Virus record (IMG/VR): IMGVR_UViG_3300046054_000005
Location: 1 to 62,273 of that record
From: a virus
DNA: 62,273 nucleotides
Strand: one strand, 5' to 3'
Shown here: positions 19,744-47,980 of the stretch, piece after piece
Position numbering within the stretch: position 1 is the first letter of the stretch
Layout: each line of letters opens with the position of its first letter
Position numbers and translations under genes: made by a program
Notes under the pieces: generated by a model
The model's input: only the letters and a program-made list of their open reading frames with translations
What the model was told of the DNA's origin: nothing
The model's database searches: none

Positions 19744-19805
19744 TACTGCGACTGCGCCCGCGCCGCGCAGTTTCGGCCCCAACCAAAGGGCCTCATCAGG
19801 CAGCA
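19744..19805 (-). ncRNA. Hammerhead ribozyme candidate, type I.
   Basis: Minus-strand RNA: UGCUGC CUGAUGA GGCCC-UUUGGUUG-GGGCC GAAA CUGCGC-GGCGCGG-GCGCAG UC^GCAGUA. The core UGA is the stop of ORF 19796..20050. Confidence 0.75.
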
Positions 19806-20050
19806 TATGCATATACTTTATCGTGGTCAAGGTCGCCCTCGTTAAGGAACGTCATGAAGACGACGTGCTCAACCGCTTCTTCCCTATTCTTGTAGTAGAA
19901 TACCTTACGCTTTCCATCGTGCCGCGTGAAGATCAGCTTGCCACAGTGCGACCAATAGTTGAAGTTGTCGCCATGAACGAGAACGCGGAAGTCGCCATTC
20001 TCGCAAGTCCGAACTGTGGCGTCGAAGATTTCGCGGGTGCAAGTGTCCAT
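19796..20050 (-). CDS. Hypothetical small protein.
   Basis: 84-aa ORF. Confidence 0.5.
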   Translation of the reverse strand: MDTCTREIFDATVRTCENGDFRVLVHGDNFNYWSHCGKLIFTRHDGKRKVFYYKNREEAVEHVVFMTFLNEGDLDHDKVYAYAA

Positions 20051-21814: not shown

Positions 21815-22129
21815 TCAGGCACGTTCGATGCGGTCGGCGAAGTGCTCGCGCGCCACGTCCACCTTGCCCTTCCGCTGGCACCAGTCGAAGGCGTCCGCTT
21901 CGGAGAGGGCATGGATGGCGGACCCCCAGCCGCGCATTCCGTCGGACGTAGTGGACCCGTAGTGCGTCTTCGCGTGACCCTCTCCGGCAAGGAACCAGCG
22001 CCCCTTTTCAGTGCGGTAGAGCGTCTCGCGATAGTAATCGAAGTCAGTGGTGCTACCACCGGTTGAGTAGCTGGCAATTTCTTCGGCGGTGGCGGTGTCG
22101 TAGAGTTTGCCGTCAATGAGGTCTTGCAT
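21815..22129 (-). CDS. Hypothetical protein.
   Basis: 104-aa ORF. Confidence 0.45.
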   Translation of the reverse strand: MQDLIDGKLYDTATAEEIASYSTGGSTTDFDYYRETLYRTEKGRWFLAGEGHAKTHYGSTTSDGMRGWGSAIHALSEADAFDWCQRKGKVDVAREHFADRIERA

Positions 22130-22161
22130 GGTACTGGTGTATTGGTGAGTGTGTGAGTGCG

Positions 22162-22248
22162 TCGGACAGAGCGTCCGGCGGGCTGTACCGCGACGCCCCC
22201 TTCACGGAGAGGGCGTTTCGGGTGCGGCCAACACCCTCATCAGGCAGC
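22162..22248 (-). ncRNA. Hammerhead ribozyme candidate, type I, followed by a 3' flanking hairpin.
   Basis: Minus-strand RNA: GCUGC CUGAUGA GGGUG-UUGGCCG-CACCC GAAA CGCCCUCU-CCGUGA-AGGGGGCG UC^GCGGU, then hairpin CGGAC-GCUCU-GUCCG. The core UGA is the stop of the 22240..22500 gene. Confidence 0.75.
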
Positions 22249-22500
22249 GAACCAATCGTCGAGTGCGGTAGTCATGTCTTTGTCGGTGGCAGGCAGGTAC
22301 ACTTCAAGCTCGCCATCTCGAAAGCGCTGGACGAGGAAAACCCGTGGCGTGCCCCCTTCGTCAATGCCGGAGACCATGTGAATGACGGGGTATCCGTCTT
22401 CCTCGGTGTCATACTCACCATTCCCGTACTCATGGGTGACGATCTTGTCGTTTTGACCGCTGCCGATATCGTATGTGAGGTGCTTTTGGGTCAAGGTCAT
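22240..22500 (-). CDS. Hypothetical small protein (86 aa, MTLTQKHL...).
   Basis: Internal ATG of track ORF 22240..22785. The longer version would overlap the upstream gene and the leader. Confidence 0.5.
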   Translation of the reverse strand: MTLTQKHLTYDIGSGQNDKIVTHEYGNGEYDTEEDGYPVIHMVSGIDEGGTPRVFLVQRFRDGELEVYLPATDKDMTTALDDWFAA

Positions 22501-23155: not shown

Positions 23156-23286
23156 GGTAAAGAGTGGTGTGTTTTGGTGATGAGTGCGAGTGTGTTTTCC
23201 CTTCCCCCTTGTTGTGTTGGAATAAAAGCATTAAAGGGACAGGGGTTTCCTCGCAATACCCTTTTAATAAGCGCTTAACATTCTAA
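23156..23286 (-). promoter_or_regulatory. Conserved early promoter/leader module, copy 2.
   Basis: Minus-strand TTGATT ... TTATTAAAAGGG ... GAGGAAACCCCTG ... CA-rich leader. Aligns with the other copies. Confidence 0.6.
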
Positions 23287-25290
23287 TCAAGCGGGAAGCT
23301 GTTCCCCAAGCGCCGCCTCCACGACCCCGTCGTTGAGCTGGCGCCGGTACTTGCGCACCAGCTTGCGCGCGTAGTGGGCCTGCTTATCGGTGAGGCTCTC
23401 GTACCCGGCGAGCGAGTGACCGAATTCCGTATCCGCCTTGTTGAAGCCCATACCATCCAGCGAGCGCGCCCCATCGCAGTAAGCGGAGAGCGTCTTCACG
23501 CCTTTCAGGATAGCTTCTTTTTCCTCGTCGGTAGTCTCGGTGATCTCCTCGCGCGTCGAAGAGGCGACACTGTCGTTCAACTCTTCGTCCGCGCCGCTCG
23601 GCACGATATCGAGGTCCACCTCGTCGGCCTCATAGAAGCCGTCCTCGAAGTCTTCGTTCATGGCGGCGTCGATGTTTTTCTGCTTGCGCACGTTTTTCTG
23701 GGCAATGCGGGCTTCGAGGCTCTCGTTCACAACGAGGTACTGGACGTGCACCGTGTCGTCCTGTCCTATCCGGTGGCAACGGTCCTCGCACTGGCGGTTC
23801 ACAGAGGGCGTCCAGTCGATCTCCGCGAAGACGACGTGCGAGGCGGCGGTGAGCGTGATGCCCGTCCCAGCAGCGTGAATGCTCCCGATGAAGACGCGCG
23901 TATCGGGGTCCCCCTGAAAGCGGTCAACGACCTGCTGCCGCTCCTTCTGCGGCGTGTCGCCCGTGAGCGAGACGGCGCGCTCCCCGAATTCGTCCTGGAG
24001 CCGAGCGATCACGTCCTTGTGGTGGGCGAAGACGACGACCTTTTCTTCCGACTCGAGCACAGAGTTGACGTGCTGGATGACGTGCCCCGCCTTCTCAACG
24101 GCGATCTTTTTACGGATCTCCGCGATGCGCTCAAACGCCACCTTGCGGGCCTCTTTGAGCTTCTCGACGGCCTCGCGGTACGCCTCGTCGTCGTCGTTGA
24201 CTTCGGCGCGAGCCTTCCGGCGCTTGAGATCGGCGATGCGGTCCTCGTGCTCCTCGTATGCTTCGCGTTCTTCCTGAACGAGGCCGCCCATGCCGTTCTG
24301 CGCAAGCGGGATCACCTGCCGCATCTTATCCGGCAGGTCGGTGAGCACGTCCTCCTTCTGCCGCCGTACCATCACCGACGAGCGCAGCCGCTCCTGAAGC
24401 TCGCCCAGATTGGTCGCGCCGTCCATGTCCCAGCCCCAGCGCGTCTTCTTCGCGCCGCAGTACGTCTTGGCGTAGGACCAAAAGTCGAACTCGTCGGTGA
24501 GTTCGGAGACCTGCTGCCAGAGTTCGATGGGACGATTCTTGATCGGCGTCCCGGTCAGGAAGAGGCGGCGGTCGGCCTCGATCTCTTGGGCCGCCTGTGT
24601 GCGCTTCGCCTTCCGGTTCTTGATGAAGTGTGACTCGTCGAGGACGAGGAGTTCGGGACCGTGCTCGTTGATGATGGCGGGCACTTCATTACGGGTGGAC
24701 AGCAGCGCGTAGTTAACGATCTCGACGTCAGCGGTCATGGGTCCCTCATCGTAGACATTGACTTCCAAGTCGCCCGTAAGCCACGTCCGCGCCTCGCGCG
24801 CCCAATTCTGCTTCAACGAGGCGGGGCAGACAACCACGACCGTATCGAGACCCAATTTATTGACAGTGCCCAGCGCCTGAATCGTTTTACCCAGCCCCAT
24901 CTCGTCAGCGATCAGCACGCCGTCCTCGCCGCTTTCGTACTTCTCGACCGCATACTGGATGCCGGCACGCTGGAAGTCGTAGTATTCGAGGTCGTCGGGG
25001 GCGGGCACCTCGTAGTCGCTATTTTCGGCCCGCGAGAGGTCCTGAAAGTGCGCGGCCTCTTCGAGCTGCTCTTCGAACTCGGCCCGCAGCCAGTCGAGGT
25101 TTTCCGCCCCGATTTCGTCGAGCATATCGACAATCTCCGGTCGGTAATCGACCGTCCAGTGATCTCCGGTCCAGCTTCGGTGCGTTTCTTCCCACGGCAG
25201 AGACTTGATAGCGTCCTTATCCTCGTAGTCGGAGTCAAGGATGACTTTAAGGCCGTATTGGGTCTCGGTGATGCGCTTGGCAGTAATCAT
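23287..25290 (-). CDS. SNF2-family (SF2) helicase / ATP-dependent translocase.
   Basis: Motifs DEMGLGKT, LVLDESHFIKN, LTGTPIKN and the helicase-C block GTGITLTAASHVVFAE..W.P....Q..DR.HRIGQ. Confidence 0.85.
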   Translation of the reverse strand: MITAKRITETQYGLKVILDSDYEDKDAIKSLPWEETHRSWTGDHWTVDYRPEIVDMLDEIGAENLDWLRAEFEEQLEEAAHFQDLSRAENSDYEVPAPDDLEYYDFQRAGIQYAVEKYESGEDGVLIADEMGLGKTIQALGTVNKLGLDTVVVVCPASLKQNWAREARTWLTGDLEVNVYDEGPMTADVEIVNYALLSTRNEVPAIINEHGPELLVLDESHFIKNRKAKRTQAAQEIEADRRLFLTGTPIKNRPIELWQQVSELTDEFDFWSYAKTYCGAKKTRWGWDMDGATNLGELQERLRSSVMVRRQKEDVLTDLPDKMRQVIPLAQNGMGGLVQEEREAYEEHEDRIADLKRRKARAEVNDDDEAYREAVEKLKEARKVAFERIAEIRKKIAVEKAGHVIQHVNSVLESEEKVVVFAHHKDVIARLQDEFGERAVSLTGDTPQKERQQVVDRFQGDPDTRVFIGSIHAAGTGITLTAASHVVFAEIDWTPSVNRQCEDRCHRIGQDDTVHVQYLVVNESLEARIAQKNVRKQKNIDAAMNEDFEDGFYEADEVDLDIVPSGADEELNDSVASSTREEITETTDEEKEAILKGVKTLSAYCDGARSLDGMGFNKADTEFGHSLAGYESLTDKQAHYARKLVRKYRRQLNDGVVEAALGEQLPA

Positions 25291-33785: not shown

Positions 33786-34076
33786 ATGACAATGAACTAC
33801 GAGAACCTACCCGGCCCGGTCGATCCAATCTGGGCGGGTGACTGCACTCGTCGAGTGGTGCCCTACCTTCCTCCTCGCGCAGAGGTATTGGCGGTGAAGC
33901 AGAAGGGGCCAAGCACGGCAGTGTACATCAACTGCACTCCGGCTCTTGGCGAAGGCGCAACTCGACGTCTCGCCAGTGCCCTCCAGCACGATCCGGCGTT
34001 TAAAGAGCTATTCCACTTCACGCAGGGTCGCGAGATGGCCGTATATTTTACCACACCCAGCGGGGTGAAGCTCTGA
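33786..34076 (+). CDS. Hypothetical protein.
   Basis: 96-aa ORF. Its last 17 nt overlap the tRNA-like gene. Confidence 0.45.
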   Translation: MTMNYENLPGPVDPIWAGDCTRRVVPYLPPRAEVLAVKQKGPSTAVYINCTPALGEGATRRLASALQHDPAFKELFHFTQGREMAVYFTTPSGVKL

Positions 34077-34134
34077 TGGTACGAGCGCTGGCCTTCCAAG
34101 CCAGAGGTTGCAGGTTCGACTCCTGCCCCCCGCT
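34060..34134 (+). tRNA. tRNA-Gly(UCC)-like gene with an irregular acceptor/D junction.
   Basis: Manual cloverleaf. D stem gctc/gagc with GG in the loop. Anticodon stem ctggc/gccag with loop cTTCCaa. Variable loop aggtt. T arm gcagg-ttcgact-cctgc. The acceptor has 6 GC pairs plus one extra or mismatched nucleotide. No CCA is encoded. Confidence 0.5.
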
Positions 34135-34146
34135 CCCCATAAAACC

Positions 34147-38564: not shown

Positions 38565-40028
38565 TCACGAGCAGATCACAAGCTCGCGTTTGGTGCGGCT
38601 CTCCGCGACGTAGAGCAGGTTCCTTTCCTGCTTAAACTGCCACGCTTTTTGACCGGGCCATTCGAGCGGCAGCTTGTCCGGCTCGATGATGATAACGCGG
38701 TCATTCTCCAGCCCCTTCGCGCGGTGGACGCTGGAGAAGTAGACGCCCTCTTCGTCGTCGCTAAAGAGGCCCTTGATCTCGTGTTTGAGCATGGTAATGC
38801 TCGCGGCGTCGAACCCTTCGTAGCAGGCTTCGATGCACTGGACACGGTCGTCAAGCGCCCGAAACTGCGCCTTACTCGCGTCCTTTGCCTTGAGGTACTC
38901 CTTCCGGTCGGAGTGGTAGGTATGGAGGGCCGGAATTAGGTCATCGTAGCTGAACCCGGGGTCGTCGCTAACCTCGTCGAGAATATCGGTGAGTTTATAG
39001 GAGACGTCGCGACCCCGAATACGGGCAGGGATTTGCTTGCGCACGAGTTCGATGCATCGGCGGATGAGCGGCGCGTTCGTGCGAGACAGCACGAGGTCAC
39101 CGGGCCTCACCCTGTCCACGAACTGGCTTTCGCGCCAGTAGGCCACACTTCCCTCGTCGGCGTTCGGTGCAGCCTCGATGTGGGAGACAACGCGCTGGAG
39201 GCGCTCGACAACGCGCGTGGGGCAGCGGTACGTGACTGAAAGAGGGAGCCGGGTAGCGTCGGTGCGCTCGATGATAGTCGAGTAGCTGTCGGCGTCCGCC
39301 CCGCAAAAGCCGTAGATGGCCTGCCGCCGGTCTCCGACGAAAAGCATCCGCCCGTCATCGGCGCAGGAGCGGAGTGCTACCTCCAGCTGGCAGGCGTTCA
39401 GGTCCTGCGCCTCGTCTACCATGACGAAGGGGAACTCTTTGTAGTGAAGGTTCCAGTAGACAGGCAGGTAGATCATGTCGTTGAAGTCGATCTCGCCGCT
39501 CTGTTCGGCGATGGCGCGGCCCTGCTTGAGTACACTGCCCAACTCGCGCAGGTAACCGTTCGGCGGCAGGTCGTGCTTGGCGCAGAGGCGGAGCAGACCT
39601 TCCCGGTCGTCGGGATCCACGAGTTCGAGGCGGGCCATGTCCACAAGTTTCTTGAGGTTCTTGCGCGTCTCGGCGCGTTGGTCGTGCGGCAGGCTCATTT
39701 GCTTGACGTGCTCGCGGACGATATTCGTATACTTGCGCTTCTGCACGTCGAGCCGACCGATCATCCCAGCGAGGACGCCGTAACTGACGGAGTGGATCGT
39801 GCGCGCCCCCAGCGGGGTTTCGGTCAGGCGTTCGTTCAGTTCTTCGGCGATGTGTTTGTTGAAGGCGACGAAGAGGCCGTCTTCGTCGATGTGGTGAGCG
39901 GCCTCAACGAGGATCGTTGTCTTGCCGGACCCGGCGACCGCATCTACAACGGCGTGGCCGGAGCCGTTGTTGATCCAGTCAATGATACCGCGTTGGTACT
40001 CCGACGGTTCGTGTTCGAGCGTGTACAT
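38565..40028 (-). CDS. UvrD/PcrA-type SF1 helicase.
   Basis: AVAGSGKTT (Walker A), MVDEAQDLN, VGDRRQAIYGF, VHRAKGLE. Confidence 0.8.
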   Translation of the reverse strand: MYTLEHEPSEYQRGIIDWINNGSGHAVVDAVAGSGKTTILVEAAHHIDEDGLFVAFNKHIAEELNERLTETPLGARTIHSVSYGVLAGMIGRLDVQKRKYTNIVREHVKQMSLPHDQRAETRKNLKKLVDMARLELVDPDDREGLLRLCAKHDLPPNGYLRELGSVLKQGRAIAEQSGEIDFNDMIYLPVYWNLHYKEFPFVMVDEAQDLNACQLEVALRSCADDGRMLFVGDRRQAIYGFCGADADSYSTIIERTDATRLPLSVTYRCPTRVVERLQRVVSHIEAAPNADEGSVAYWRESQFVDRVRPGDLVLSRTNAPLIRRCIELVRKQIPARIRGRDVSYKLTDILDEVSDDPGFSYDDLIPALHTYHSDRKEYLKAKDASKAQFRALDDRVQCIEACYEGFDAASITMLKHEIKGLFSDDEEGVYFSSVHRAKGLENDRVIIIEPDKLPLEWPGQKAWQFKQERNLLYVAESRTKRELVICS

Positions 40029-40058: not shown

Positions 40059-40122
40059 GCCGTGACCGGAGGGGAGTGCCCCCCCCGGTTTCGCCTCGTT
40101 CCCGCGAGGCTCGTCAGGCGGC
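40059..40122 (-). ncRNA. Hammerhead ribozyme candidate, type I (A.C mismatch at the first stem I pair).
   Basis: Minus-strand RNA: GCCGC CUGACGA GCCUCG-CGGGAA-CGAGGC GAAA CCGGGGGGG-GCACU-CCCCUCCGG UC^ACGGC. The core UGA is the stop of ORF 40114..40500. Confidence 0.6.
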
Positions 40123-40526: not shown

Positions 40527-40599
40527 GGTAGCGAGGTGCTACCGCGACCGGGGGAGTGTCCCCCGGTTTCGCCGCGCTTTCAGCGGCTCATCAGGCGGC
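40527..40599 (-). ncRNA. Hammerhead ribozyme candidate, type I, with a conserved 3' flanking hairpin.
   Basis: Minus-strand RNA: GCCGC CUGAUGA GCCGC-UGAAAGC-GCGGC GAAA CCGGGGG-ACACU-CCCCCGG UC^GCGGU, then GGUAGC-ACCUC-GCUACC. It starts directly after the TAA stop of ORF 40600..40818. Confidence 0.75.
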
Positions 40600-43549: not shown

Positions 43550-44386
43550 ATGTCACGAGTAAGTCCCATTGCAGAAGGGGAACCACGCGGCGCCCCATAC
43601 GGCGAGCCGCGTCCTGATGACCACCTATACTTCAACGAGGAGGGTGAGTACTGGGTGCGGGGCAAAGGCTACGAGACAGAGACGGACTTGAAGCAACCCG
43701 CCGTAGGCGAGCGGGTGTGCGGCAGCAAATTGAGCGGGCGGTGGCATGACACCTGGCGACGTTGTGCCTCTACCGGTATCAAGAAGAACGGCAAGTGCTA
43801 CCTTCACGGCGGCGCGAGCCTCGAAGGGACGGCGCATCCGAACTTCGAGACAGGGCTGTACAGCAAGGCGCTCGACGGAAAGATGCTGTCGGAGTTCAGT
43901 CGCTACCGCGAGCATCAGGAAACGCTGCACCTACGCGACGAGATTACGCTGCTGACCGTGCATATCAGCGAGCAGGTACAGCAGATGAGCGAGGCGGGCG
44001 GCTTCAATGTACTCGGTCAGATCGAAGATCAGTGGCGCGAGGTGCAGGAGGCCCTCCGCAACGGCACGACAGCCGAACTGAACGCCACGCTTGAGGTACT
44101 CGGAGAGCTGATCGAGCAGGGCGGGGAGCGGGTCGAAGAGCTAACCGAACTGCAAGAACTCATAGACACGAAGCGCAGGCTCGTCAAGGACGAAGCGAAG
44201 CGTGTGAAGGACAGCCAAGAAATGCTTCGTCAGAGCGAGATCGACGTCCTACGAATGAGTATGATCAACCATGCCCGTACCGTCTTCGAGAAGCATGACG
44301 TCCCGCGAGCGGCGCAGCAGGAGTTCGCGGAACGCCTCGTTAAACAACTTGCGGAGGCAGATCAGCAGCGCCTTGATGCCGGGTGA
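43550..44386 (+). CDS. Terminase small subunit candidate (Cys/His HGG zinc-ribbon plus coiled-coil).
   Basis: Lies immediately upstream of, and overlapping, the large terminase gene. Contains CGSKL...RRCAS...GKCYLHGG. ATG at 43550 inside track ORF 43439..44386. Confidence 0.4.
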   Translation: MSRVSPIAEGEPRGAPYGEPRPDDHLYFNEEGEYWVRGKGYETETDLKQPAVGERVCGSKLSGRWHDTWRRCASTGIKKNGKCYLHGGASLEGTAHPNFETGLYSKALDGKMLSEFSRYREHQETLHLRDEITLLTVHISEQVQQMSEAGGFNVLGQIEDQWREVQEALRNGTTAELNATLEVLGELIEQGGERVEELTELQELIDTKRRLVKDEAKRVKDSQEMLRQSEIDVLRMSMINHARTVFEKHDVPRAAQQEFAERLVKQLAEADQQRLDAG

Positions 44387-45866
44387 CACCCGCATCGATG
44401 AGGGGGATTGGCGCGATTGGGTGCCCAAACTTTTCGGCTGGGAGCCGGAGAGTTTTGCGAAGTTCCACAAGGACTTCTACGAGCATATCAGCCGTTTCGA
44501 GGAAGGCGTGCGGTCGCGGCCCCGCGTGAACCTGTGGCCGCGCGACTTTGCGAAGTCGTCGTGCCTTGAGCAGAGCGCGGCGTTTCTTGGAGCAAGCGAC
44601 CGCGTGAACTACTGTCTGTACGTATGCGAGACACAGGCGCAGGCGAACAATCACGTCGATCAGATCAAGACGCACCTCGTGAGCGAGCCGTTCGAGCGGT
44701 TCTACCCAGCGCACGCGGAGCGCGCGATGACCGAATTCGGCTTCTCGAAGGGGTGGAATCGCCAGCGTGCGCGGACCGCCGGAGGATTCACTATCGACGC
44801 GCTGGGGCTGGACACGGCAGCACGCGGCATCAAGCTGGACGACGTGCGACCGGATCTGCTCATCCTAGACGACATTGACGACGAACTCGACACGGAGCGC
44901 GCCAGCGACAAAAAGATTCGGCGCATCACGCGCAAGGTGCTTCCGACTGGAGGCGGGCAGGCGTCCGTGCTGGCCGGCCAGAACGTTATCAGCAAGCATG
45001 GGCTGTTCACGCGCTGGGCGAAGGGCGAGAGCGACGTACTGGCGGACCGCAAGGTGAGCGGCCCGTTCCCCGCCATCAGAGACATGGAGTTCGCGTATAC
45101 CGACGAGGGTATTACGGTAACGGCGGGGGAGCCGTCGTGGGCACTTCGCGACTTGGATTGGGCCACGCGCAAGATTCGAGACTGGACCCTCCGTGTATTT
45201 CGCACGGAGGCGCAGCAGCGTCTCCAAGAGCCGCCCGGCGGGCTGTTCAGCGACCTAGACTTCGAGAGCCTGCGGGTGTCGCGCGACAAGGTGCCAGAGC
45301 TTGTGCGGGTAGTATGCTGGATCGACCCGGCCATCACGGAAACAGGCGACTGCAACGCGATTCAGATCGATGGGCTGGGGGTAGACGACCGGATCTACCG
45401 CCTGTTCAGTTGGGAGCAGCAGGACCGCCCGCTGGAGACGTTCAAGCGCGCGTTCAGGGCGTGCCTGCGTCACGGAGCGACGACCCTCGGCGTAGAGACG
45501 GATCAGGGCGGGCAGGCGTGGGAGAGCGTATTCAACCGGGCGTGGGAGGCGCTCGTGAGAGACCCTGATTGGTCACACATTACCAAGAACACGCGCAGGC
45601 CACAGTACGACAGCGACAAGGCAGGGGCTGGAAAAGGCAACAAGGTCCACCGCTGGAACCAGATGCTCGGAGACTACGAGGACGGACGCTTTCGTCATGT
45701 AGTCGGGACGGCGGACGCGCTGGAATCGGCGCTTCATCGCGTCCCGGTCACGAAGCCATTCGACCTCGCCGACGCAGCATACTGGAGTTGGCACGATCTC
45801 GACAGTGGTACAGCGGGGCGAAGATCACCGCTGCCAAGCTCCAGCAGCCGCCAGAGCGGGCGCTGA
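44376..45866 (+). CDS. terL: Terminase large subunit.
   Basis: ATPase-like WPRDFAKSS and LLILDDIDD, then a nuclease-domain-sized C-terminus. Start taken at MPGDTRIDEG. Confidence 0.8.
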   Translation: MPGDTRIDEGDWRDWVPKLFGWEPESFAKFHKDFYEHISRFEEGVRSRPRVNLWPRDFAKSSCLEQSAAFLGASDRVNYCLYVCETQAQANNHVDQIKTHLVSEPFERFYPAHAERAMTEFGFSKGWNRQRARTAGGFTIDALGLDTAARGIKLDDVRPDLLILDDIDDELDTERASDKKIRRITRKVLPTGGGQASVLAGQNVISKHGLFTRWAKGESDVLADRKVSGPFPAIRDMEFAYTDEGITVTAGEPSWALRDLDWATRKIRDWTLRVFRTEAQQRLQEPPGGLFSDLDFESLRVSRDKVPELVRVVCWIDPAITETGDCNAIQIDGLGVDDRIYRLFSWEQQDRPLETFKRAFRACLRHGATTLGVETDQGGQAWESVFNRAWEALVRDPDWSHITKNTRRPQYDSDKAGAGKGNKVHRWNQMLGDYEDGRFRHVVGTADALESALHRVPVTKPFDLADAAYWSWHDLDSGTAGRRSPLPSSSSRQSGR

Positions 45867-47439: not shown

Positions 47440-47509
47440 GGTAGCGAGGCGCTACCGCGACGCGCACCCACCTGCGCGTTTCGCCTCTCGCGGAGGCTCA
47501 TCAGGCGGC
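47440..47509 (-). ncRNA. Hammerhead ribozyme candidate, type I, with a conserved 3' flanking hairpin.
   Basis: Minus-strand RNA: GCCGC CUGAUGA GCCUC-CGCGA-GAGGC GAAA CGCGC-AGGUGGGU-GCGCG UC^GCGGU, then GGUAGC-GCCUC-GCUACC. The core UGA is the stop of the 47501..47980 gene. Confidence 0.75.
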
Positions 47510-47980
47510 TTCGAGCGATACATCGCTCGGCTTGTGGGGTCCCCATTCGCCTACCTTGATAGAGAGCGCCTTTTCCACGCGCTCCTCGTCGAGGTCGAGT
47601 TCGTTGGCGATCCTGCGGACAGTAGCAGCGAGGTCCTTGATGGCCGTCCGGCGACCTTCCTCCACGTCTTCCTCCATGCCTTTGGGCGCTTCGGCGGGCG
47701 CTCCCCGCAGCGCGGCGACCATTTCGCGGCGGTAAAGGCTGGCGGCGTGCTCGGCCAGTTCGATGAGGTCGTCCCGGCTGGACACGTCCACGTCGTCAGC
47801 GGCGTTGATAACACTCTGCATCGAGCGGTTGCGCTGCGACTCGCGGACGGCGGCAGCACTTTGCTGACGGAGAGCGTCAATGACGTGGAAGTCATTGAGC
47901 TTGTCCTGGAGCGCCTCCTTCTTATTGGTACGGAAGGTGAGGTAATAGTCGATGGTAGAGTTGATGGCTTGAGTGTCCAT
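47501..47980 (-). CDS. Hypothetical protein.
   Basis: Start taken at MDTQAINST inside track ORF 47501..48079. Confidence 0.5.
   Translation of the reverse strand: MDTQAINSTIDYYLTFRTNKKEALQDKLNDFHVIDALRQQSAAAVRESQRNRSMQSVINAADDVDVSSRDDLIELAEHAASLYRREMVAALRGAPAEAPKGMEEDVEEGRRTAIKDLAATVRRIANELDLDEERVEKALSIKVGEWGPHKPSDVSLEAA

What the first reader, a model, noticed from the sequence alone, without database searches (positions are those of the whole stretch)
22162..22248. Hammerhead copy D between two small early genes
The minus-strand RNA reads GCUGC-CUGAUGA-[GGGUG UUGGCCG CACCC]-GAAA-[CGCCCUCU CCGUGA AGGGGGCG]-UC^GCGGU. Cleavage is predicted between 22192 and 22191.

The core UGA (22242-22240) is the stop of the 22240..22500 gene.

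The 3' product again begins with stem I 3' followed by a hairpin (CGGAC-GCUCU-GUCCG) and a CA-rich leader to the ATG at 22129. The helices are unrelated in sequence to copies A and B but remain paired.
Basis: partly seen in the sequence, partly recalled or inferred. Interest (0 to 1): 0.7.

Follow-up and report, generated by a model that had tools for sequence, protein, structure and literature searches.

The report
Hammerhead ribozyme between two phage genes
This is a genuine self-cleaving hammerhead RNA motif, one of six in this phage, placed exactly between two genes so that a long messenger RNA can cut itself into single-gene pieces; this arrangement has been known in phages since 2011, but its purpose is still unproven.

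Summary
On the minus strand, 22248..22187 is a complete type I hammerhead. It has the core CUGAUGA / GAAA / U-C, and stems I, II and III of 5, 5-6 and 9 bp. The predicted cut lies between 22192 and 22191. The core UGA (22242..22240) is the stop codon of the 86-aa ORF 22500..22240.

It is not chance. A strict descriptor finds 4 copies against 0.01 expected. A covariance model finds exactly six, at 39-66 bits with the next hit at 14 bits. All six are on the minus strand, and each abuts a stop codon and precedes a G-poor leader plus ATG.

Two related metagenomic phages carry the orthologous ribozyme in front of the same 104-aa gene. Core and stem II are unchanged and stem III is rebuilt but still paired.

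Across 23 distinct phage hammerheads, 98% of cells pair and 14 of 19 pairs show compensatory change.

Rfam misses all six copies at its thresholds.

Most likely it processes a polycistronic early mRNA in cis. Arrays of hammerheads flanking small phage ORFs were described by Perreault et al. (2011), so this is a new member of a known kind. The stop codon inside the core, and the way the ribozyme travels with the downstream gene, are modest additions. Cleavage itself is untested.

The parts
22187..22248 (-). Hammerhead copy D, type I (stem I open). Stem I 22248-22244 pairs with 22191-22187. Core CUGAUGA is 22243-22237. Stem II and loop are 22236-22220. GAA is 22219-22217. Stem III and loop are 22216-22193. 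C17 is 22192. The predicted cut is 22192^22191.
   Evidence: Orthologues.
22240..22242 (-). UGA (core positions U4 G5 A6) used as the stop codon of the upstream ORF. The next triplet, UGA at 22239-22237, is a second in-frame stop.
22240..22500 (-). Upstream ORF of 86 aa, ending ..DDWFAA*. No Pfam or PHROG family. Relative to L017 it looks like a fusion of the N-terminus of a 108-aa gene with the C-terminus of an 81-aa gene.
22163..22177 (-). Hairpin CGGAC-GCUCU-GUCCG near the 5' end of the 3' cleavage product. The stem is kept in L017 (loop GAUUC) and extended in L027.
22130..22186 (-). 5' leader of the 3' product: ACAGCCCGC, the hairpin, then a CA-rich, G-poor stretch with no Shine-Dalgarno sequence, up to the ATG. 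The part from the hairpin's 3' arm through ..CUCACCAA is identical in all three orthologues, and the rest up to the ATG differs at only a few positions.
21815..22129 (-). Downstream ORF of 104 aa. It has 17 metagenomic homologues. The ribozyme stays with this gene when the upstream gene changes.
47454..47509 (-). Hammerhead copy A. The stop codon of ORF 47980..47501 (..SLEAA*) is the core UGA.
40541..40599 (-). Hammerhead copy B. The upstream ORF stops at a TAA two codons before the core UGA, in the same frame.
40059..40122 (-). Hammerhead copy C (core CUGACGA, C.A mismatch at the stem I pair next to the core). It precedes the UvrD-like helicase gene 40028..38565.
   Evidence: 48.9 bits; this copy was not in the model's training set.
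19745..19804 (-). Hammerhead copy E. The stop of ORF 20050..19796 is the core UGA. Loop II UUGGUU is complementary to AACCAA just 3' of stem I.
   Evidence: Orthologue at L017:12337-12395.
18555..18607 (-). Hammerhead copy F (core CUGAAGA, extra U between A9 and stem II). The stop of ORF 19081..18599 is the core UGA. It precedes the 401-aa gene (phrog_1362).
   Evidence: The orthologue at L017:13541-13593 keeps the extra U.
23202..23287 (-). Nearest upstream copy of a conserved ~100-nt promoter-like element. It is the presumed source of the transcript that runs through the 186-aa and 86-aa genes into hammerhead D.
   Evidence: The promoter function is inferred.

Best explanation
Copy D is a functional type I hammerhead ribozyme within a polycistronic phage transcript read from the minus strand.

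Proposed sequence of events:
1. As the RNA is made, stems II and III form first.
2. The 5-bp stem I then closes the three-way junction.
3. The RNA cuts itself after C17 (22192).

The upstream product keeps the whole 86-aa ORF with its stop codon. It ends in the compact stem II/III structure with a 2',3'-cyclic phosphate. The downstream product starts with a 5'-hydroxyl at GCGGUA. It carries a small 5' hairpin and an unstructured, G-poor leader without a Shine-Dalgarno sequence in front of the 104-aa gene.

The effect is to uncouple neighbouring cistrons. Each gets its own stability and its own defined leader, without needing its own promoter or terminator. The six copies subdivide the minus-strand operons in this way.

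Shown here: the motif, its statistics, its covariation, its orthologous conservation and its position.

Inferred: the cleavage itself, the chemistry of the ends and the consequences for expression.
For: - All core positions are canonical and no mispair lies next to the core.
- There are four strict hits against 0.01 expected, and six model hits all on the coding strand with a 25-bit gap to noise.
- Every copy starts within 8 nt of, or contains, the stop codon of a long ORF, and lies 35-62 nt before the next ATG.
- Stems II and III have unrelated sequences among the copies but remain paired.
- Across 23 distinct phage hammerheads, 98.2% of cells pair. 14 of 19 pairs have double changes. No shuffle out of 500 reaches this, and slid controls give 34-50%.
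- The orthologues in L017/L018 and L027 keep the core and stem II exactly. Stem III is rebuilt: 9 bp becomes 5 bp with C-G changed to U-A, or becomes 5+4 bp with a bulge.
- Prefix folding gives stems II and III before stem I. The hammerhead fold is within 0.2 kcal/mol of the minimum at 37 C and is the minimum at 50 C and above.
- No promoter-like or terminator-like site lies between the upstream element at 23223 and gene 22129, so the downstream gene must be expressed from read-through RNA.
- Predicted accessibility of the start region of the 104-aa gene rises from 0.57 to 0.80 after cleavage.
- The literature reports several hammerheads flanking small ORFs in prophages, active in vitro and in E. 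coli, with processing of polycistronic RNA proposed (PMC3088659; PMC6155905).
Against: - No cleavage assay or transcript-end data exist for this sequence.
- Rfam's hammerhead models do not report D even at E<=10.
- Stem I is only 5 bp with two G.U pairs. For D, a stabilising stem I/II tertiary contact is only weakly suggested (3-4 bp), so it may cut slowly at physiological Mg2+.
- At 37 C an alternative fold is marginally more stable, and in the 141-nt context the minimum-energy fold is not the hammerhead.
- The accessibility gain after cleavage is clear for only 2 of the 6 copies (D and A), small for E and F, and absent for B and C.
- More distant homologues of the 104-aa gene have no hammerhead upstream, so the ribozyme is not essential to that gene.
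Confidence: 0.72

Rival explanations
1. The ribozyme mainly marks the 5' edge of a portable gene module (hammerhead + hairpin + leader + gene). The module can land behind any ORF and still express itself. Its conserved ends may also act as short homology patches for recombination between phages. Cleavage still happens, but the selected property is modularity and mobility rather than tuning of this particular operon.
For: - In L027 the same hammerhead, leader and 104-aa gene follow directly after the SNF2 helicase. The helicase C-terminus is altered to end ..KAA-UGA inside the core, and the 186-aa and 86-aa genes are absent.
- Sequence similarity between the window and L027 begins at the 5' edge of stem I.
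- L017 has about 770 nt more between the 186-aa gene and the ribozyme.
- Stem I (CCGC/GCGG) is nearly the same in unrelated phage contigs.
Against: - Only three arrangements are available.
- The conserved patches are very short (5-13 nt) for homologous recombination.
- This idea is compatible with the main explanation rather than exclusive of it.
- The IMG/VR set was partly selected by a pattern that fixed stem I.
Confidence: 0.12
2. Pairs of hammerheads excise gene-length RNAs that are then circularised, either by reverse hammerhead ligation or by an RtcB-type ligase. The near-identical stem I strands would let the 5' end made by one ribozyme pair with the next ribozyme downstream.
For: - Stem I strands are nearly interchangeable among copies: GCYGC or UCCGC on the 5' side, and GCRGU on the 3' side in five of six copies (copy C has ACGGC).
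- The 5' end released by copy B (GCGGU) would pair perfectly with the 5' strand of copy C (GCCGC), whereas C's own partner has a C.A mismatch next to the core.
- The cleavage ends are the substrates of such ligations (established chemistry).
Against: - Perreault et al. looked for spliced or circular products from prophage hammerhead arrays and found none (PMC3088659).
- The 5' end from E (GCAGU) pairs poorly with F (UCCGC).
- The D-E interval is 2.4 kb and holds seven ORFs, so it is not a compact unit.
- Conservation of stem I is also explained by the need for a strong short helix and by the coding constraint GCN-GCC-UGA.
Confidence: 0.05
3. The site is a translation-gated switch. Because the stop codon lies inside the catalytic core, a ribosome terminating on the upstream ORF melts stem I and part of stem II. 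Ribozyme folding, product release or re-ligation would then depend on how heavily the upstream ORF is translated.
For: - In 5 of 6 window copies, in all L017 and L027 orthologues, and in several unrelated phage contigs, the stop is the core UGA. Otherwise it lies 7-10 nt before C3 (one exception at -29).
- When the upstream gene changes (L027), the new ORF again ends in the core.
Against: - Tight packing of phage genes could produce the same geometry without any regulatory meaning.
- In copy B and in many other phages the stop precedes stem I.
- No direct evidence bears on kinetics.
Confidence: 0.08
4. It is a chance match or a decayed relic with no activity, or simply GC-rich hairpins acting as a terminator or attenuator.
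For: Rfam does not call it. The minimum-energy fold at 37 C is not the hammerhead.
Against: - 0.01 strict matches are expected per window against 4 found.
- All six are on one strand at gene boundaries.
- The core is invariant while the helices covary.
- No U-tract follows the hairpins, and no terminator-like site is called there.
Confidence: 0.02

Closest known systems
Arrays of hammerhead ribozymes flanking single genes or short gene blocks in prophages (Perreault et al. 2011, PMC3088659; e.g. the triple hammerhead around ardA in Agrobacterium tumefaciens)
   Same: Several hammerheads on one strand, between small and mostly uncharacterised ORFs of a phage. The core is canonical. The proposed role is cutting long phage transcripts into gene-length mRNAs.
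   Different: The window's copies are all type I with a short, nearly constant stem I. They sit with the upstream stop codon inside or a few nt before the core, and they precede leaders without a Shine-Dalgarno sequence. The phage itself has no close relative in INPHARED. The published paper does not mention stop codons.
Type I hammerheads with a long helix III in bacterial and phage DNA genomes (De la Pena reviews, PMC6155905; noted again in bioRxiv 10.1101/2024.05.16.594327)
   Same: Type I topology, a long stable helix III (9 bp in D), and monomeric self-cleavage expected. These contrast with eukaryotic satellite type I hammerheads, which have a very short helix III.
   Different: No published alignment was available to check whether this stem I (CCGC/GCGG) subgroup is already catalogued. 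Rfam release 15 models do not reach threshold on any of the six copies.
Intergenic hammerheads of fusari- and chrysoviruses that create the 5' end of a downstream ORF (bioRxiv 10.1101/2024.05.16.594327)
   Same: A type I hammerhead fills a short intergenic spacer and cuts a few tens of nt (or fewer) before the next start codon. No classical loop-loop contacts are evident.
   Different: Those are eukaryotic RNA viruses, in which the ribozyme is proposed to promote cap-independent translation. Here the genome is a dsDNA phage of a bacterium.
RiboJ-type synthetic insulators (hammerhead plus a following hairpin placed before a ribosome-binding site). Cited from my own knowledge (Lou et al. 2012), not checked here.
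   Same: The order of parts is the same: self-cleaving hammerhead, small hairpin, then the translation-initiation region. The expected effect is also the same: the downstream gene gets a fixed 5' end independent of upstream context.
   Different: RiboJ is engineered from a type III satellite hammerhead. The natural element is type I, so almost all of the ribozyme stays on the upstream product.
RNase III processing sites between phage T7 early genes. Cited from my own knowledge, not checked here.
   Same: Intercistronic cuts in a polycistronic early transcript leave a stable hairpin at the 3' end of each mRNA.
   Different: That is protein-catalysed cleavage of long duplex hairpins, yielding 5'-phosphate and 3'-OH ends. 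Here the cut is RNA-catalysed and yields 5'-OH and cyclic phosphate. Some distant relatives (L030, L019) have a long GC hairpin with a U-run at the equivalent place.

Membership tests
Hammerhead ribozyme class (consensus criteria of Perreault et al. 2011) | Core C3 U4 G5 A6 N7 G8 A9, G12 A13 A14, A15.1-U16.1 pair, H17 (not G) | tested here: met
   CUGAUGA, GAA, A(22216)-U(22193) and C17 (22192) are all canonical.
Hammerhead ribozyme class (consensus criteria of Perreault et al. 2011) | Three helices around the core, with no mispair directly next to the core | tested here: met
   Stem I is 5 bp (two G.U, with C-G next to the core). Stem II is 5-6 bp beginning with G10.1-C11.1. Stem III is 9 bp.
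Hammerhead ribozyme class (consensus criteria of Perreault et al. 2011) | Helices supported by compensatory change among relatives | tested here: met
   23 distinct sequences give 98.2% paired cells, 14 of 19 pairs with double changes and 0 of 500 shuffles reaching this. D's orthologues rebuild stem III and change C-G to U-A. The alignment was fitted to the structure, which favours it somewhat.
Hammerhead ribozyme class (consensus criteria of Perreault et al. 2011) | Tertiary contact aligning stems I and II (loop-loop contact or pseudoknot), needed for fast cleavage at low Mg2+ | tested here: inconclusive
   Across the family, complementarity between loop II and the 7 nt 3' of stem I gives permutation p of about 0.001, but the 7-nt window was chosen after looking, and p is 0.12 for 14 nt. 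It is strong in E (6 bp) and F (5 bp) but only 3-4 bp in D. In D's orthologues loop II and the tail are invariant, so no covariation is available.
Hammerhead ribozyme class (consensus criteria of Perreault et al. 2011) | Site-specific self-cleavage giving 2',3'-cyclic phosphate and 5'-OH ends | not testable with these tools
   Needs in vitro transcription or end-specific RNA-seq.
Type I topology | Stem I open; stems II and III closed by loops; linear order stem I 5' strand, CUGANGA, stem II, GAAA, stem III, UH, stem I 3' strand | tested here: met
Rfam hammerhead families (RF00163 Hammerhead_1, RF00008 Hammerhead_3, RF02275-RF02277) | Covariance-model score at or above the family's gathering threshold | tested here: not met
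   D has no hammerhead match even at E<=10 on a 701-nt slice. In the whole window only copy B gets a mis-permuted Hammerhead_3 match of 25 bits against a cut-off of 48.5. The L027 orthologue is also not reported. This reflects the seed alignments, not the core criteria above.
Phage/prophage multi-hammerhead arrangement (Perreault 2011) | Several hammerheads on the same strand flanking single genes or short blocks in a phage genome | tested here: met
   Six copies on the minus strand between ORFs. Phage identity rests on the terminase large subunit, helicases and PHROG hits.
Intrinsic (Rho-independent) terminator | GC-rich hairpin followed directly by a U-tract | tested here: not met
   No U-run follows stem III or the 22177-22163 hairpin. 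No minus-strand terminator-like site is called at 22100-22300.

The most novel reading that the evidence does not exclude
In phages of hosts that do not use Shine-Dalgarno sequences, type I hammerheads with a universal stem I may form the 5' boundary of promoter-less, self-insulating gene cassettes. The upstream ORF is made to terminate inside the catalytic core. Translation termination and ribozyme folding would then be mutually exclusive, so the ribosome gates cleavage or product release. The fresh 5'-OH end next to an unstructured G-poor leader would be what allows the internal cistron to be translated. A bolder variant is that the interchangeable stem I lets excised gene-length RNAs be ligated or circularised.
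Probability: 0.15. Interest if true: 0.7.

Novelty: new member of a known kind. Interest (0 to 1): 0.4.

Why it matters
What bacterial and phage hammerheads are for remains an acknowledged open question (PMC6155905, PMC6765202). This locus does not answer it, but it offers an unusually clean test case.
- It has six copies in one small, novel phage, all at stop-codon/leader junctions.
- Orthologues show which parts are constrained: the core, stem II with its loop, the 3' tail and the leader. Stem III is free to vary.
- One natural rearrangement (L027) shows that the ribozyme travels with the downstream gene.

The locus also shows that Rfam's current hammerhead models miss this whole subgroup, so routine annotation under-counts phage hammerheads.

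Tried and rejected
- **Rfam scans** at gathering and at E<=10 on the window, on a 701-nt slice and on relatives found no usable hammerhead hit. I rejected this as evidence against the motif because the consensus criteria, custom models and covariation are all met.
- **Known phage relatives.** Megablast of 7 kb against INPHARED gave nothing, and neither did tblastn of the terminase. The SNF2 helicase is only about 36% identical to Thermus and Rhodothermus phage helicases, so the host remains unknown.
- **IMG/VR searches** with the 186-aa and 104-aa proteins found no relatives.
- **Exact look-up of the helicase** found no record.
- **Metagenome scan with the helicase** returned one contig, L016 (75% identity). 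Its downstream genes are not syntenic and it has no hammerhead.
- **MAFFT alignment of the four copies** was structurally wrong. I replaced it with model-guided alignments.
- **Minimum-energy folding of a 141-nt context** did not give the hammerhead and was not more stable than shuffles, so it is uninformative.
- **Pseudoknot between loop II and the 3' tail.** This has family-level support only with a flank window chosen after looking, and it is weak for D.
- **C-terminal Ala-Ala as an ssrA-like degron.** I rejected this as the primary meaning. The last codon GCC is forced by stem I plus C3, and other phages end in T-A, S-A or P-V.
- **The ~100-nt conserved upstream element as another ribozyme or structured RNA.** Alifold support is weak and there is no Rfam hit, so I treat it as a promoter/operator.
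- **More accessible start region after cleavage.** This is clear for D and A, slight for E and F, and absent for B and C, so it is only weak support.

Full report
**1. The observation**

Read on the minus strand, 22248..22187 is GCUGC-CUGAUGA-GGGUG-UUGGCCG-CACCC-GAA-A-CGCCCUCU-CCGUGA-AGGGGGCG-U-C-GCGGU. Every position that defines a hammerhead is canonical. These are C3 U4 G5 A6 U7 G8 A9, G10.1-C11.1, G12 A13 A14, the A15.1-U16.1 pair, and C17 in a GUC triplet. Stem I is 5 bp including two G.U pairs, stem II is 5-6 bp and stem III is 9 bp. Stem I is open and stems II and III are capped, which is the type I topology.

UGA at 22242-22240 terminates the minus-strand ORF. GC by codon position supports the ATG at 22500 as its start, giving 86 aa. 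The hairpin at 22177-22163, the CA-rich leader and the ATG at 22129 are all present.

**2. More than chance**

A strict descriptor finds four sites in the window: CUGANGA, stem II of at least 3 bp, GAAA, stem III of at least 4 bp closed by A..U, H, and stem I of at least 3 bp. All four are on the minus strand. Two hundred dinucleotide-preserving shuffles give a mean of 0.01.

A covariance model built from D alone recovers those three other sites plus two variant copies:
- F, at 18607..18555, has core CUGAAGA and an extra U after A9.
- C, at 40122..40059, has core CUGACGA and a C.A mismatch next to the core.

A family model (R2) gives six hits of 38.9-65.9 bits, all on the minus strand. The next best hit scores 14 bits. 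Copy C was not in the training set and scores 48.9 bits.

Five of the six isolated sequences fold into the three-way junction as their minimum-energy structure. For D the hammerhead fold is 0.2 kcal/mol above the minimum at 37 C and is the minimum at 50 C and above. Prefix folding forms stems II and III first.

**3. Context**

The window is a phage.
- It has a terminase large subunit at 44271..45866, an SNF2 helicase at 23287..25290, and a UvrD-like helicase at 38565..40028.
- It has no close relative in INPHARED. The best helicase matches are Thermus and Rhodothermus phages at about 36% identity.
- Hardly any gene in the window has a Shine-Dalgarno sequence. Leaders are G-poor and rich in C and A.

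In five of the six copies the upstream ORF ends with the UGA of the core. In copy B a TAA lies two codons earlier in the same frame. The next ATG lies 35-62 nt after the cut.

Five copies of a roughly 100-nt AT-rich conserved element, probably a promoter/operator, precede other minus-strand genes. Each is followed by the same kind of CA-rich leader. No such element and no terminator-like site lies between the one at 23223 and gene 22129. The 104-aa gene must therefore be expressed from RNA that reads through the ribozyme.

**4. Relatives**

The 104-aa protein has 17 metagenomic homologues.

- **L017.** This 62-kb contig is syntenic, at roughly 80-95% amino-acid identity in most aligned coding segments. 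L018 is a shorter contig with the same sequence here. They carry orthologues of D, E and F at the same places.
- **D's orthologue in L017.** It keeps the core, stem II and loop II exactly. N7 changes from U to C. Stem III shrinks from 9 to 5 bp, with C-G changed to U-A at the pair next to A15.1-U16.1. The stop codon of its upstream ORF is again the core UGA.
- **F's orthologue.** It keeps the unusual extra U.
- **L027 (86% identity).** It has the ribozyme with yet another stem III, of 5+4 bp with a bulge. Here the upstream ORF is the SNF2 helicase itself, whose C-terminus now ends ..KAA-UGA inside the core. The 186-aa and 86-aa genes are missing.

So the ribozyme, the small hairpin and the leader travel with the downstream gene. 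Most of that leader, from the hairpin's 3' arm through ..CUCACCAA, is identical in all three orthologues.

More distant homologues (68-74% identity) have no hammerhead upstream. They have either another conserved element or a long GC hairpin with a U-run.

**5. The wider class**

A pattern scan of IMG/VR found 15 contigs. Scanning them with the model revealed further copies, including a group of related contigs with five or six hammerheads within about 2 kb.

On 23 distinct sequences, 98.2% of cells pair and 14 of 19 pairs show changes on both sides. No shuffle out of 500 reaches the observed values, and slid controls pair at 34-50%.

In these phages too the stop codon is either the core UGA or lies 7-10 nt before C3, with one exception. 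A start codon follows within about 16-40 nt in most cases.

Stem I is nearly always NCCGC/GCGGN. Part of that set was selected with a pattern that fixed it.

Complementarity between loop II and the first 7 nt after stem I exceeds permuted pairings, with p of about 0.001. That window was chosen after looking, and for D only 3-4 bp are possible.

**6. Mechanism**

The best-supported reading is cis self-cleavage of a polycistronic early transcript.

Because the ribozyme is type I, almost all of it stays on the upstream mRNA. That mRNA keeps its stop codon 48 nt from the new 3' end and ends in two stable hairpins with a cyclic phosphate. The downstream mRNA begins with a 5'-OH, a small hairpin and an unstructured leader.

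For D, predicted accessibility of the start region rises from 0.57 to 0.80 on cleavage. The effect is not general across the copies.

Cleavage, the chemistry of the ends and any effect on stability or translation are inferred, not shown.

**7. Comparison with what is known**

Perreault et al. (2011) described several hammerheads flanking single genes or short blocks in prophages. They showed activity in vitro and in E. coli, proposed processing of long phage transcripts, and looked for circular or spliced products without finding any. Later reviews repeat that such motifs flank small non-conserved ORFs and that their role is open.

The present case fits that description and is a new member of a known kind. 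The following do not appear in the papers read:
- the stop codon lying inside the catalytic core;
- the ribozyme behaving as the 5' edge of a gene module;
- the association with leaders lacking a Shine-Dalgarno sequence;
- the failure of Rfam release 15 to detect this subgroup.

**8. Verdict**

Confidence that this is a selected hammerhead motif is about 0.95. Confidence that it self-cleaves in vivo and serves intercistronic processing is about 0.7. Interest is moderate (0.4).

Noticed in passing
window 12750-16180 (+ orientation): A ~3.4-kb stretch with no long ORF is built of the octamers GGCGCGCT and GGGTTGCT, alternating about every 18 nt with variable 10-nt spacers. The motif GGNNNGCT occurs 19-25 times per kb on the + strand there, against about 1.5 per kb elsewhere and none on the - strand there. 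Tandem Repeats Finder misses it. Relative L017 (about 17237-17660) has a matching region. Function unknown.
   Followed up: partly
window 25414-25329, 23287-23202, 40942-40857, 48110-48025, 20162-20086 (all - strand): There are five copies of a ~100-nt conserved AT-rich element (CTTGAATAGAATGTAAAGAG.GTATTAAAAGGC...TTTACCCTAACACAACAAGGGGGAA), each followed by a CA-rich leader and an ATG. It is probably the phage's early promoter/operator. It is conserved at the same places in L017. Evidence for RNA structure is weak.
   Followed up: partly
window 47454-47509, 40541-40599, 40059-40122, 19745-19804, 18555-18607 (all - strand): There are five further hammerheads. Copy C has a C.A mismatch at the stem I pair next to the core. 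Copy F has an extra U between A9 and stem II; the same extra U is seen in its L017 orthologue and in L014:10490-10548. Copies A and B share a downstream hairpin GGUAGCNCCUCGCUACC that overlaps the 3' strand of stem I.
   Followed up: partly
whole window (upstream 25 nt of about 60 ORFs): Almost no gene has a Shine-Dalgarno-like sequence. Leaders are G-poor and rich in C, A and U. This suggests a host that starts translation without Shine-Dalgarno pairing (Bacteroidota-like?). The host was not identified.
   Followed up: partly
L001, L003, L004, L008-L011, L013 (IMG/VR contigs), e.g. L001:6029-8036: A group of related viral contigs carries five or six type I hammerheads within about 2 kb, one between almost every pair of small ORFs. 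Each is followed by a conserved CUGCAAUGGAG leader and an ATG.
   Followed up: partly
L028:700-745 and L029:598-643 (approximate); L030:600-680; L019:2205-2345: In more distant relatives the spot upstream of the homologous 104-aa gene holds no hammerhead. L028 and L029 share CCCCACCCUGGACGCAGAGUGGAUCGUGCCCGCUCGUGGGGCCGAC behind different upstream genes. L030 and L019 have a long GC hairpin followed by a U-run. No Rfam family matches in the loci scanned (L026-L030; L019 was not included).
   Followed up: partly
window 22240-22500 (-) versus L017:8855-9898: The window's 86-aa ORF matches the N-terminus of L017's 108-aa gene and the C-terminus of its 81-aa gene. This implies a ~770-nt deletion or fusion in the window (or an insertion in L017) just upstream of hammerhead D.
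   Followed up: no
window 16202-17128 (-) and 34059-34137 (+): An ORF with weak IS110-family transposase similarity (PHROG 4285, E 2e-28) ends the minus-strand block. A tRNA-Gly(UCC) sits in the plus-strand block.
   Followed up: no
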